Shown in pieces: positions 61,031-63,065 of a stretch of DNA of 64,000 nucleotides (its first letter is position 1; the number at the start of each line of letters is the position of its first letter). Under the pieces are notes generated by a model, which was given only the letters and a program-made list of their open reading frames with translations, was not told the origin of the DNA and made no database searches. A program made the translations under genes and the position numbers. Source of the stretch: Rhodothermales bacterium (GTDB lineage: Bacteria; Bacteroidota; Rhodothermia; Rhodothermales; Bin80); contig OY762508.1 in NCBI GenBank assembly GCA_963665975.1, forward strand, positions 2,781,456 to 2,845,455. Direction: 5' to 3'.

Positions 61031-61226
61031 GGTCAAATGAAAAGTGGGTGCGAACTTTGTACTGTTCGCTTCGCTCACTTGACCTTCACGCTCATGCAGA
61101 GGCTCTTCTATCTCGGGCTGGACGCCCATGCACGCTCCTGCGTCTTGGCGGCTATGAATGCTACCGGCCGATTGCTGTACACCAAAGCGTTCACCACATC
61201 TCAAGCAGCCCTGATCAGCCATGTGG
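61031..61226 (+). pseudogene. 5' fragment (left end + first 44 codons) of a sister IS110-type copy, truncated by an IS21-like insertion
   Basis: About 97% identical to 57500-57695. Homology stops after ...ALISHV at 61226. Confidence 0.85.
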
Positions 61227-61227
61227 G

Positions 61228-61573
61228 TGTGTTTATTCCGACGATGTCGATCACCTAAACCGAGCGATGTCGATCACTTTATTGGTCCGTTCACCGCTGT
61301 TGATTGTTAACGTTGTGAGTGATCGCTTTGGTTCGTTTCGTCTGCCATTGTGGCAAGGTGTTTCCGCATGGAATCGCCGCTTAGAGCGATGCGATGCGCG
61401 TTGTGAATGAGCCGATCCAGAATAGCGTCGGCCAGGGTTGGGTTTTCCATGGTTTTGTGCCAGAGATCAAGCGGGAATTGGCTGGTGATGATCGTGGAGC
61501 GCTGCTGGTGGCGATCATCGAGCACTTCAAGAAGGTCCTGTTGTTGGCTTGCTGTGAGTGTAGTCAATCCCCA
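61228..61573 (-). mobile_element. Right-end fragment of a second, different IS21-family element
   Basis: The terminus is TGTGTTTATTCCG. Duplicated subterminal sites (cgatgtcgatcac x2, about 61242-61279) are typical of IS21 ends. It carries the 3' part of an istB gene. Confidence 0.7.
61307..61573 (-). pseudogene. istB: istB 3' fragment (IS408/IS1162-like subgroup)
   Basis: [71 protein letters not shown]. It begins exactly at the WGL that follows the Walker B DD motif. Confidence 0.8.
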
Positions 61574-61647
61574 GGTAATATCAAAAACGGTCGCGTACGC
61601 ACGCGCGTACTTAACGATCGATCAATCATATTACCGGGAGGTGCCGC

Positions 61648-62718
61648 ATGCTACAACGGGTATACCTTGGCTTGGACGCGCATATCCGCCATTGCGTGCT
61701 GGCGGGCATGGATGCGCGTGGCAGGCTGCTTTTCAGCGAACGCTTTCCGACTTCGGAAGCGGCGCTGCAAAGTCACATGGTGGCAATTCAAGCGCGCAAG
61801 AAAGAACTGGCCCTGGAGGAATCCTCGTTGGCGGACTGGCTGGCGGGAGTGCTGCAGGATTATGTGGATGTGCTCATTGTGTGTGATCCACGTCAGAATG
61901 CGCTTATCAGCCATAGCGCGCACAAAGACGGCCGAGAGGATGCCTGGAACCTGTGCCGCTTGCTGCGGCTGGGCGAGCTCAAGCCCGTATTTCATTCTGA
62001 ACAGGCGCATCGGGGGATTTTCAAGAGTGCTGTGCAGCACGATCTGAGTCTGCGTGATCAGCAGTCCAGCCTGAAAACGCGTATCAAGGCCATGTACCAC
62101 AAGGCCGGAGTGTTACGCCTGGACGGTGCGCGCGTCTTCAATCCAACGTACCGTGCCCAGTATCTGGACCAACTGCCGGATCAGCCCCGTCGTGTCATGG
62201 TATCGAATCAGTATTCGGTGCTGGATACGATGCTTGCGGCCCAGCAAGCGGCGTTTAACGAGATGATCCGGCAAGGTAAGCGGTACCCCGAGATCAGGGA
62301 ATTCATGAAGATGCCGGGCGTGGGTCCAATCGGCGCCCATGTCTTTGACGCCTTCATCCAGACGCCGCACCGGTTTGCCACCAAGCAAAAGTCGTGGCGT
62401 TACTGCAAACTCGGGGTACTGGAGCGCAGCAGCAGCGGCAAGCCTCTCGCCTACAAGCGCCTCGATCGCTCGGGGTCAGGTGCGCTGAAAGCCGTCAGCT
62501 ATCAGTGCTGGCTGTCCGCCCGGAAAACCCGTGAACCCAACGAGGTATCGCAGTTCTACGAGGCCTCACTGATCCGCACGGGCAACTCTACGGCTGCGCG
62601 ACTCAACACGCAGCGTAAGGTGCTGCTCGTGCTTTGGACCATCTGGAAGCACAATGTAGCCTACAACCCACACCTGTTCGTCACCCCTGCCCGTGGAAGC
62701 TGTGTGCGCAGCGGCTGA
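61648..62718 (+). CDS. IS110-family DEDD recombinase (intact, 356 aa)
   Basis: MLQRVYLGLDAHIRHCVLAGMDARG... The Transposase_20 C-terminus is present, and the last ~120 codons are nearly identical in DNA to copy A. Confidence 0.9.
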   Translation: MLQRVYLGLDAHIRHCVLAGMDARGRLLFSERFPTSEAALQSHMVAIQARKKELALEESSLADWLAGVLQDYVDVLIVCDPRQNALISHSAHKDGREDAWNLCRLLRLGELKPVFHSEQAHRGIFKSAVQHDLSLRDQQSSLKTRIKAMYHKAGVLRLDGARVFNPTYRAQYLDQLPDQPRRVMVSNQYSVLDTMLAAQQAAFNEMIRQGKRYPEIREFMKMPGVGPIGAHVFDAFIQTPHRFATKQKSWRYCKLGVLERSSSGKPLAYKRLDRSGSGALKAVSYQCWLSARKTREPNEVSQFYEASLIRTGNSTAARLNTQRKVLLVLWTIWKHNVAYNPHLFVTPARGSCVRSG

Positions 62719-63065
62719 CCCATAGGGCCCTGCGACCACCGCCCGCGGATTCGGGTAGCCGGGACATGCTCCAGCGACATTTTACTGCTCCACCGTGTGG
62801 AAGCTCGAATTCTAGGATAGCACCCCGGCCCTCATGCCCCATATGACGCTAGCGCCCACGCATTCGGGACGCTCACAAACGAGTATGGCCACTGAGACGC
62901 TTTCGCTCAAGTCGTGTATGTCCGCATCCAGGCTGTGGTTCACTTGGCACAAGATTGGATAGCCCAGAGCGCACGTCAACTCCCCCGCGCACCACGCACC
63001 CTGCAAAATCCACCGGTTCTGCAGACAGGAGACGTACGGGCGGAACTTACCTTTTCAAACGAAAT
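62719..63065 (+). ncRNA. Candidate bridge/seek RNA region in the 3' arm of copy B
   Basis: See 60665-61012. Its guide-like segments match the junction of the truncated sister copy at 61025-61033 and its own right junction. Confidence 0.45.

What the first reader, a model, noticed from the sequence alone, without database searches (positions are those of the whole stretch)
61031..63065. Mosaic IS110-type copy: the truncated left end at 61031 and the right arm ending at 63065 appear to belong to one sister copy whose middle was replaced
The left-end fragment at 61031-61226 is about 97% identical to copy A (about 6 differences in 196 nt). The right arm at 62719-63065 is also about 97% identical to copy A (9 differences in 348 nt). 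The guide-like segment in that right arm matches the junction of the left fragment (aattctagg) and does not match the junction at 61574 (ccccagg). Between them lie an IS21-like right-end fragment (61228-61573) and the divergent 5' half of another IS110-type element. DNA identity to copy A is roughly 75% upstream of about 62355 and rises to 97-99% by about 62480. The most economical history has four steps: sister copy A2 inserted, an IS21-like element inserted into A2 at 61226/7, a divergent IS110 relative inserted into that element's istB, and homologous recombination between the two recombinase 3' regions deleted everything in between. The result is an intact chimeric recombinase ORF whose left end and right arm (guide RNA) come from different lineages. 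If so, its donor-end recognition should be mismatched.
Basis: inference. Interest (0 to 1): 0.6.

Follow-up and report, generated by a model that had tools for sequence, protein, structure and literature searches.

The report
Recombinant IS1111-type insertion sequence
A small RNA-guided jumping gene sitting in the end of another jumping gene had its front two-thirds replaced by a distant relative after two further insertions and one deletion; this is an instructive but ordinary product of transposons nesting in one another.

Summary
Window 61032-63063 is one IS1111-group (IS110 family) element, "A2". It keeps its own left end (61032-61226, 6 differences in 196 nt from copy A). It also keeps its own 3' CDS, guide-RNA arm and right end (62388-63063, about 97% identical to A). 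Between them lie an IS21 right-end fragment (61227-61573, minus strand) and the left end plus 5' two-thirds of a different lineage, "B" (61574-62334).

At 211 lineage-informative sites the gene switches once, from B-lineage to A-lineage states, within 62335-62387. The right arm encodes a covariation-supported bridge/seekRNA-like RNA. In about 60 related loci its two target guides match that element's own flanks. Here they match the flanks at 61031 and 63064, not B's junction at 61573.

New context: A and A2 occupy two tandem target sites, 22 nt apart, in the left inverted repeat of a complete IS21 element (54862-63076, 6-bp duplication CTTTAG). B-sublineage elements target the Walker B codons of istB.

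The predicted donor-end mismatch is not supported. What is mismatched is B's left flank.

This is a new member of a known kind, of modest interest.

The parts
54862..63076 (-). IS21-U: a complete IS21-family element that hosts the whole nest. istB is at 55131-55925 and istA at 55922-57472. The right inverted repeat (IRR) starts at 54862. The left inverted repeat (IRL) is interrupted by A and A2. The 6-bp target duplication CTTTAG lies at 54856-54861 and 63077-63082.
   Evidence: Pfam matches for IstB, rve and Mu-transpos_C_2. With the IS110-type inserts removed, the reconstructed IRL aligns with the IRR, and identical CTTTAG flanks both ends.
57502..61009 (+). Copy A: an IS1111-group element in the inner target site of the IS21-U IRL. 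Its recombinase gene is split by a group II intron at 58078-60107.
   Evidence: The guides match the flanks at 8 of 9 and 10 of 10 positions.
61010..61031 (+). A 22-nt piece of the IS21-U IRL (TTGTCGTTGCCGTTAATTCTAG) lying between the two target sites. It is the right flank of A and the left flank of A2.
   Evidence: Homologous 22-nt spacers occur in L032, L033, L045 and L047. In L032 and L045 the inner site is unoccupied.
61032..61226 (+). A2 left end plus the first 43 codons of its recombinase gene, truncated by the IS21-F insertion.
   Evidence: 6 differences from A in 196 nt; homology ends at 61226.
61227..61573 (-). IS21-F fragment: the right terminal repeat (TGTG... from 61228) and the IstB C-terminus starting exactly at the W of the DDWG motif.
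   Evidence: PF01695 profile positions 167-233 of 238. The translation begins WGLTTLT.
61574..62334 (+). B-lineage left end (GTAATATCAAAAACGG) and the 5' two-thirds of the recombinase CDS, which starts at 61648.
   Evidence: B-lineage states at the informative sites. DNA identity is 74-82% (61648-62000) and 70.5-73.5% (62001-62336) to L001-L004, against about 62% to A. Relatives L001 and L085 lie at the same istB site.
62335..62387 (+). Crossover interval within the most conserved stretch of the gene, which encodes AHVFDAFIQTPHRFATKQK.
   Evidence: The last B-specific site is 62334 and the first A-specific site is 62388.
62388..62718 (+). A2-derived 3' third of the recombinase CDS, encoding the C-terminal PF02371 domain.
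   Evidence: Every lineage-informative site from 62388 onward carries the A-lineage state except one, which matches neither lineage. There are 11 differences from A in 331 nt.
62746..62925 (+). Bridge/seekRNA-like structured RNA in the A2 right arm. The target loop carries a right-flank guide (62773-62782, AGCGACATTT) and a left-flank guide (62807-62815, GAATTCTAG). Candidate donor guides lie at 62840-62847 (CATATGAC) and 62876-62883 (CAAACGAG).
   Evidence: The module is conserved in 63 of 86 sequences searched. The consensus structure has 26 pairs, 98% of cells paired, and no shuffle out of 500 reaches the observed score.
63050..63063 (+). A2 right end (CCTTTTCAAACGAA). CTTTTCA at 63051-63057 is the subterminal inverted repeat partner of TGAAAAG at 61038-61044.
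   Evidence: Read directly from the sequence. The right-end motif TT..AAACGAR is conserved across loci.
63064..63076 (+). The last 13 nt of the IS21-U IRL (ATGTCGTCAATCA). This is the right flank of A2.
   Evidence: It matches the right-flank guide at 8 of 10 positions. L032 and L045 have the homologous terminal sequence TTGTCGYTARACA. The CTTTAG duplication follows it.

Best explanation
Window 61032-63063 is a single IS1111-group (IS110 family) insertion, "A2". It sits in the outer of two tandem target sites in the left inverted repeat of an IS21 element. Sister copy A occupies the inner site, 22 nt away.

Inferred history:
- An IS21-family element (IS21-F) inserted into A2's recombinase gene at 61226/61227.
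- An IS1111-group element of another lineage (B) inserted, antisense, into the Walker B (DDWG) codons of IS21-F's istB. This is the programmed target of the B sublineage.
- One recombination event, within the roughly 50-nt most conserved stretch of the two directly repeated recombinase genes (62335-62387), deleted about 3.4 kb. The lost DNA was B's 3' part and arm, most of IS21-F, and the middle of A2.

What remains has A2's own two ends, its own flanks and its own guide RNA. It also has an intact hybrid recombinase gene. The N-terminal DEDD/RuvC and coiled-coil part comes from B. The C-terminal domain comes from A2.

Status of the steps. Shown: the mosaic boundaries, the lineage switch, the guide-flank matching and the host IS21. 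Inferred: the order of events, that the deletion was homologous rather than site-specific, and any activity of the RNA or of the hybrid protein.
For: - Identity step and differences.
- Lineage-informative sites: 211 in all, with a single switch between 62334 and 62388.
- Protein halves: the N-terminal half is 72-74% identical to P0002-P0009 and the C-terminal third is 96% identical to A.
- RNA module: conserved in 63 of 86 sequences searched, and supported by covariation (98% of cells paired; 11 pairs with changes on both sides; no shuffle of 500 reaches it; slid controls reach at most 50%).
- Guide rule: the exact 8-mer left guide is found at the element's own left junction in 33 of 63 loci, against 0.5% for other elements' guides. 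The left guide matches its own flank at 7-8 of 9 positions in most loci.
- This arm: it matches the 61031 flank at 8 of 9 and the 63064 junction at 8 of 10, but B's flank at only 4 of 9.
- Target of the A lineage: IS21 terminal repeats, seen in L005, L032, L033 and L045.
- Host element: IS21-U has aligned inverted repeats and a 6-bp CTTTAG duplication.
- Target of the B sublineage: the same istB site in L001 and L085, and an intact site in the L004 istB.
- Uniqueness: the chimeric protein's cluster is a singleton.
Against: - No unrearranged A2, IS21-F or pure B copy from the same genome could be retrieved, so the intermediates are inferred.
- The crossover cannot be placed more finely than 53 nt.
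- The sequence appears to be from a metagenome-assembled genome (every relative retrieved is one), and no reads were available to verify the joins.
- The order of the A and A2 insertions is unknown, as is whether B entered IS21-F before or after IS21-F entered A2.
Confidence: 0.85

Rival explanations
1. 61574-63063 is an ordinary, non-recombinant family member. Its 3' third and arm merely happen to be highly conserved with copy A.
For: The region around 62337-62415 is conserved in all lineages, at 78-87%. The RNA scaffold is conserved family-wide.
Against: True B-lineage relatives are only 64-67% identical to this 3' CDS, whereas A is 97.7% identical. The arm's left guide does not match B's left flank (4 of 9), whereas natural elements mostly score 7-8 of 9. 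The right flank is the IS21-U terminus, not istB. The protein's cluster is a singleton.
Confidence: 0.02
2. Gene conversion without deletion. A complete B element had its 3' half overwritten by an A-type copy, and the left fragment at 61032 is an unrelated remnant.
For: At least three A-type copies exist in the genome as possible conversion donors: A, A2 and P0005.
Against: Conversion cannot explain why the right end abuts the last 13 nt of the IS21-U inverted repeat instead of istB. It also cannot explain why both guides of the arm match exactly the flanks of the orphan left fragment and of this right end. The arm carries private differences from A, so A itself is not the donor.
Confidence: 0.04
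3. Assembly artefact: the assembler joined a B-containing locus to the A2 locus through the shared conserved stretch.
For: The source is probably a metagenome-assembled genome, since all relatives retrieved are such genomes. The region is dense in repeats.
Against: The only sequence shared between the B and A lineages at the join is about 30-50 nt, too short to mislead a long-read assembly. The other junctions (61226/61227 and 61573/61574) are clean transposon termini at lineage-typical target sites. The reading frame is preserved.
Confidence: 0.05
4. The deletion was made by the RNA-guided recombinase itself, at a target-like site inside both recombinase genes, rather than by general homologous recombination.
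For: In L002/L006 a B-lineage element is inserted in a sibling's recombinase gene at ACCAARCAAAAG|GT. This is the homologue of window 62381-62392, which lies inside the crossover interval.
Against: The guides present in this window are programmed for IS21 repeats, not for that site. The sequence to the right of the site (TCGTGGCG) differs from the L002 target (TCTGGAGA). Nothing distinguishes this from plain homologous exchange in the longest identical stretch.
Confidence: 0.04

Closest known systems
IS1111-group insertion sequences with a 3' seekRNA / bridge RNA (ISEc11, ISKpn4, ISPa11; Siddiquee et al. 2024, PMC11187229; Durrant et al. 2024, PMC11208160)
   Same: A DEDD N-terminal domain plus a PF02371 C-terminal domain. 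A long non-coding region downstream of the gene. Short subterminal inverted repeats. A structured RNA with one segment matching the top strand placed 5' of one matching the bottom strand of the target. Orientation-specific insertion at a programmed site.
   Different: This is an uncharacterised clade found mostly in Rhodothermales metagenome-assembled genomes, with no ISfinder name checked here. No Rfam family matched. RNA expression and transposition are untested. This particular copy is a recombinant between two lineages whose recombinase N-terminal parts (residues 1-235) are about 58% identical.
[quoted passage not shown]
   Same: An IS1111-type element whose programmed target is the terminal inverted repeat of another transposon. 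Insertion is in a fixed orientation relative to that repeat, and can occur at either end of the host element.
   Different: Here the host is an IS21-family element. Its repeated terminal motifs offer two tandem sites 22 nt apart, both occupied in this window by sister copies with slightly different guides. A sister sublineage instead targets the istB Walker B codons.
ISEc11 versus ISXne4: natural redirection by replacement of the seekRNA target segments (PMC11187229, section 10)
   Same: Related elements differ mainly in the guide segments, and their flanks differ correspondingly.
   Different: Here the change is very small. There are 2 substitutions in the left guide and 2 in the right guide between copies that are 97% identical in one genome, retargeting between adjacent repeats of the same host inverted repeat.
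ISPpu9 modular transposition and its circular intermediates (PMC12288879)
   Same: An IS110-family element whose recombinase gene and small-RNA module can be separated and recombined as modules.
   Different: In the window the modules were shuffled by nested insertions plus one deletion, not by alternative circle formation. I read only the abstract of that paper.

Membership tests
IS110 family, IS1111 group | Recombinase with an N-terminal DEDD (RuvC-like) domain and a C-terminal PF02371 domain | tested here: met
   PF01548 matches residues 7-149 and PF02371 matches residues 218-304 of the 356-aa chimeric protein. The protein retains all columns invariant in a 15-sequence family alignment, in which it is itself one of the rows.
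IS110 family, IS1111 group | The long non-coding region lies downstream of the recombinase gene and the left end is short | tested here: met
   The left end is 62-74 nt (57502-57563 and 61574-61647). The right arm is 345 nt (62719-63063).
IS110 family, IS1111 group | Subterminal inverted repeats of 7-17 bp | tested here: met
   TGAAAAG at 61038-61044 pairs with CTTTTCA at 63051-63057, each 6 nt from the end. This was read from the sequence and the motif recurs in relatives. At 7 bp it is at the short limit of the range. The automatic repeat finder did not rank it.
IS110 family, IS1111 group | The non-coding region encodes a structured RNA whose two segments match the target's top and bottom strands, with the top-strand match 5' of the bottom-strand match | tested here: met
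   Covariation-supported structure. The 5' segment is the reverse complement of the right junction, and the 3' segment equals the left flank, in most of 63 loci. The order matches PMC11187229, section 9.
IS110 family, IS1111 group | The RNA is expressed, binds the recombinase, and is required for transposition | not testable with these tools
   There are no expression or biochemical data. Rfam has no matching family.
IS21 family (host IS21-U and fragment IS21-F) | istA (DDE/rve) followed by istB (AAA+ ATPase, PF01695) | tested here: met
   IS21-U has rve plus Mu-transpos_C_2 (55922-57472) and IstB (55131-55925). Only the IstB C-terminus of IS21-F survives.
IS21 family (host IS21-U and fragment IS21-F) | Terminal inverted repeats with internal repeated motifs, and a 4-8 bp target duplication | tested here: met
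   For IS21-U the reconstructed ends align and are flanked by CTTTAG on both sides. For IS21-F only one end exists, so the duplication cannot be tested.
Group II intron (in copy A, 58078-60107) | Intron-encoded reverse transcriptase/maturase and the ribozyme domains | tested here: inconclusive
   RVT_1 (E 6.9e-40) and GIIM (E 3.6e-17) domains are present. The boundaries GTGTG...AC restore the recombinase reading frame. The Rfam D1-D4 match scores 21.4 bits, below the gathering score of 32.

The most novel reading that the evidence does not exclude
The 2,032-bp unit 61032-63063 may still be mobile. It retains a cognate left end (195 nt), a cognate right end, flanks that match its own guide RNA on both sides, an intact RNA module, and an uninterrupted hybrid recombinase gene.

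If it moves, it would be a natural demonstration of two things. First, the DEDD/coiled-coil module of one lineage can work with the C-terminal domain and bridge/seekRNA of another lineage; the two lineages' N-terminal parts are only about 58% identical. Second, such an element can carry foreign cargo, here an IS21 fragment.
Probability: 0.2. Interest if true: 0.5.

Novelty: new member of a known kind. Interest (0 to 1): 0.32.

Why it matters
The locus is a clear natural record of how RNA-guided IS110/IS1111 elements evolve and interact with other transposons.

- Two sister copies in one genome differ mainly in their guide segments, and each sits at the sub-site its guides specify.
- Related lineages are programmed against conserved parts of other mobile elements: the IS21 terminal repeats, the istB Walker B codons, and even a sibling's recombinase gene.
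- A single recombination produced an in-frame hybrid recombinase beside a guide RNA from the other parent.

For people engineering bridge recombinases, this hybrid and the guide-flank table across about 60 loci are useful. They give leads on module compatibility and on the guide code of a Rhodothermales clade.

Nothing here requires a new mechanism.

Tried and rejected
- The first scan of genome contigs, using the chimeric protein alone, found no relative. The source genome is therefore not in that collection. A second scan with a family alignment gave 79 loci.
- Exact look-ups for the contigs encoding P0001 and P0005 returned nothing. The third A-type copy in the source genome could not be examined.
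- Rfam has no family for the arm RNA. The minimum-free-energy fold of the arm alone is not better than shuffles (z = 0.36); the support comes from covariation.
- The sigma-70 promoter scan found nothing on the plus strand in 60950-63150. It is uninformative for this phylum.
- I first placed the IS21-U terminus at 57473 and thought the 22-nt spacer might belong to the IS110-type ends or to a circle junction. Both ideas were rejected. L032 and L045 showed an unoccupied inner site inside an IS21 end, and the CTTTAG duplication was found at 54856 and 63077.
- I looked for an uninterrupted copy of the target motif elsewhere in the window. There was nothing above chance.
- The metagenome scan for B-type left ends gave one decayed copy (L085). 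It is again in istB but lacks its arm, so no native arm of the closest B relatives was recovered apart from L001.
- The donor-mismatch idea was tested and not supported.
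Full report
**Observation**

- The left fragment 61031-61226 differs from copy A (57501-57696) at 6 of 196 positions. Homology ends abruptly at 61226/61227.
- The right arm 62719-63065 differs from 60665-61011 at 9 of 347 positions.
- I aligned copy A, with its group II intron (58078-60107) removed, to 61560-63100. Identity is flat at 50-70% up to about 62330. It then jumps to 88-100% from about 62332 to the right end.
Codon-aligned identity to A is 62.6% (61648-62000) and 61.9% (62001-62336). It is 87% in 62337-62415 and 97.7% in 62416-62718.
- The stretch 61307-61567 on the minus strand is the C-terminus of an IstB protein (PF01695, E 1.4e-19).
- ORF 61648-62718 is an intact 356-aa IS110-family recombinase, with PF01548 and PF02371 matches.

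**Is the gene a chimera?**

A search of 5.8 billion proteins found the exact protein once, on a 3.93-Mb contig. Its 90% cluster has a single member.

The protein's two parts have different closest relatives:
- The N-terminal 235 residues are closest to P0002-P0009 (71-74% identity). The C-terminal thirds of those proteins are only 60-69% identical to this protein's C-terminal third.
- That C-terminal third is 96% identical to copy A and to P0005, an A-type copy from a contig of the same length.

I then compared DNA from five relatives: L001-L004 for the B lineage and L005 for the A lineage.
- I took the 211 sites where A and L005 agree and differ from the B-lineage majority.
- The window gene carries predominantly B-lineage states up to 62334.
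- From 62388 onward every informative site but one carries the A-lineage state; the exception matches neither lineage.
- The 53 nt in between encode AHVFDAFIQTPHRFATKQK. This is the most conserved stretch in the family, so no informative sites exist there.

This is one clean crossover, not a gradient of conservation.

**The right arm encodes a guide RNA, and its guides identify which ends belong together**

The right arms of 63 of 86 sequences searched (the fetched loci plus the two window elements) share a module:

GGGTAGCCGGGA.ATGCTCC - [about 10 variable nt] - TTTA - hairpin - GGAAGCTC - [about 9 variable nt ending in AG] - TAGCA.CCCGGCC

A second loop follows it. A 31-sequence alignment gives a consensus structure of 26 base pairs in five helices.
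- 98% of cells are paired.
- 11 pairs show changes on both sides.
- No shuffle out of 500 reaches the observed values.
- Controls with the 3' partner slid by 1-3 columns reach at most 50% pairing.

The first variable segment is the reverse complement of the element's right junction. The second equals the left flank.
- The exact 8-mer left guide sits at the element's own left junction in 33 of 63 loci, against 0.5% for guides of other elements.
- The exact 7-mer right guide sits at the element's own right junction in 22 of 63 loci, against 2.6%.
- Allowing mismatches, the left guide matches its own flank at 7-8 of 9 positions in most loci.

Two published features of IS1111 seekRNAs and bridge RNAs are met. 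The order is a top-strand match placed 5' of a bottom-strand match. The RNA lies downstream of the gene (PMC11187229, sections 6 and 9; PMC11208160, section 12).

For the arm at 62719-63063:
- The left guide GAATTCTAG (62807-62815) matches the flank of the orphan left fragment (TAATTCTAG, 61023-61031) at 8 of 9 positions. It matches B's flank (AATCCCCAG) at 4 of 9, which is within the range seen for unrelated pairs.
- The right guide (62773-62782) matches the junction at 63062-63071 at 8 of 10 positions.
Four are at guide positions (62774, 62780, 62810, 62812). The fifth is 63064, which by my boundaries is the first base of the right flank.

The left fragment and the right arm are therefore the two ends of one insertion, A2.

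**What hosts the nest**

Relatives with the same guides as A were decisive. In L032 and L033 the element sits 13 nt from the right terminus of a complete IS21 element. In L045 and L005 it sits at the left terminus of an IS21 in the opposite orientation. These IS21 ends contain a tandemly repeated motif (AAAYTTTTAR-TTGTCGYY). It offers two target sites 22 nt apart. In L032, L033 and L045 the inner site is empty and the outer one is occupied.

In the window both sites are occupied: the inner by A (57502-61009) and the outer by A2. The 22 nt between them (61010-61031) is IS21 sequence.

When A and A2 are removed, the reconstructed left inverted repeat aligns with the right inverted repeat at 54862 onward. 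Both ends are flanked by CTTTAG (54856-54861 and 63077-63082). A complete IS21 element, IS21-U (54862-63076, minus strand, with intact istA and istB), therefore hosts everything.

**B and the IS21 fragment**

B's left end starts at 61574, directly after ...CCCCAG. On the other strand this is the junction between the D and W codons of the IstB Walker B motif DDWG; the surviving fragment translates from WGLTTLT.

Two independent relatives, L001 and L085, sit at the same position in different istB genes. L004's intact istB shows the uninterrupted site...TCCCCAG|TCGTCGAG. L001's guides fit this target approximately: its left guide matches its flank at 5 of 9 and its right guide predicts a right flank of TCATCGAT, the antisense of the Walker B codons.

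B therefore inserted into IS21-F by its own programmed specificity. To the right of the element, however, there is no istB. There is only the last 13 nt of IS21-U. So the rest of B, most of IS21-F and the middle of A2 have been lost, about 3.4 kb by my estimate.

The simplest cause is one exchange between the two directly repeated recombinase genes in their longest shared stretch. I cannot distinguish general homologous recombination from a recombinase-mediated event. A relative (L002/L006) is inserted in a sibling's recombinase gene at the homologous ACCAARCAAAAG|GT site, inside the crossover interval. The guides present in this window do not address that site, so I give the idea about 4%.

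**Functional consequence**

I identified candidate donor guides by analogy with the target loop. CATATGAC is the reverse complement of the left-end start, and CAAACGAG equals the right-end tip. They match the ends at 6-8 of 8 positions in all natural loci and vary little. B's left end GTAATATC scores 6 of 8 against this arm. That equals the score in the multi-copy clade L017-L021, which has the same end and the same guide. The prediction is not supported.

What is mismatched is B's left flank against the left target guide. This matters because:
- Excision substrates are read across both RNA loops (PMC13626964, abstract).
- Reprogramming an IS1111 element required changing its flanks together with its guides (PMC11187229, section 10).

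The unit that keeps matched flanks, matched ends, the RNA and an open reading frame is 61032-63063. Whether it moves is unknown, and no second copy exists.

**Comparison and novelty**

This is an IS1111-group element by every sequence criterion I could test.
- Targeting of another transposon's inverted repeat has a precedent in IS4321/IS5075.
- Natural retargeting through guide changes has a precedent in ISEc11/ISXne4.
- The recombinant copy, the tandem occupation of two IS21 sub-sites by sister copies with co-varying guides, and the istB Walker B target are new instances, not a new kind.

Interest is modest.

**Limits**

- The source genome could not be retrieved, so the intermediates are inferred.
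- The assembly could not be checked against reads.
- RNA expression and protein activity are untested.
- The donor-guide assignment rests on analogy and limited covariation.

Noticed in passing
window 58078-60107: A group II intron interrupts the recombinase gene of copy A. Its boundaries are GTGTG...AC, and it carries a reverse transcriptase/maturase ORF at 58721-60061. Removing it restores a 355-aa reading frame. The Rfam D1-D4 match is below threshold (21.4 bits against 32).
   Followed up: partly
window 54856-63082: A complete IS21-family element lies at 54862-63076 on the minus strand, with a 6-bp duplication CTTTAG. Its left inverted repeat carries both IS1111-type copies. Its right inverted repeat (54862-54910) holds the two homologous sub-sites unoccupied.
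   Followed up: yes
L002 3930-5460 (the same contig as L006): A B-lineage element is inserted, in the same orientation, inside the recombinase gene of a sibling element of very similar sequence. The site is ACCAAACAAAAG|GT, in the most conserved coding stretch of the family. Its guides fit that site. This is an element programmed against its own family's gene.
   Followed up: partly
L001 3560-5490: An IS21 remnant consists only of its two inverted terminal repeats, an IstB C-terminal fragment and a B-sublineage IS1111-type element whose right end is degenerate. This is a second example of deletion following insertion into istB.
   Followed up: partly
L047 about 2430-2500: A right-end remnant (CCAAACGAA) is followed by a 22-nt IS21 spacer and then the left end of a full copy. 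This is an independent case, in another genome, of the tandem arrangement seen in the window.
   Followed up: no
window 57499-57510 with 57545-57556 (also 61029-61040 with 61075-61086): A 12-nt inverted repeat within the left end (TAGGTCAAATGA / TCACTTGACCTA) includes the last three flank bases. It is conserved in L005. Its role is unknown; it could be a 5' UTR hairpin.
   Followed up: no
window 24393-24624: There are 19 tandem copies of a 12-nt unit (CTTGGTCGGTAG, 98% matches). They lie at the 3' end of a 608-aa minus-strand ORF (24370-26196) that has Schlafen AlbA_2, HATPase_c_4 and Fic-like_C domains, and would encode a four-residue repeat near its C-terminus.
   Followed up: partly
window 61227-61573 versus 55131-55925: Two IS21 subfamilies coexist in the window. 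IS21-F, like the istB genes in L004 and L002, has Walker B motif DDWG. IS21-U has DDIG with different DNA. This explains why the B sublineage hit IS21-F and not the istB of IS21-U.
   Followed up: partly
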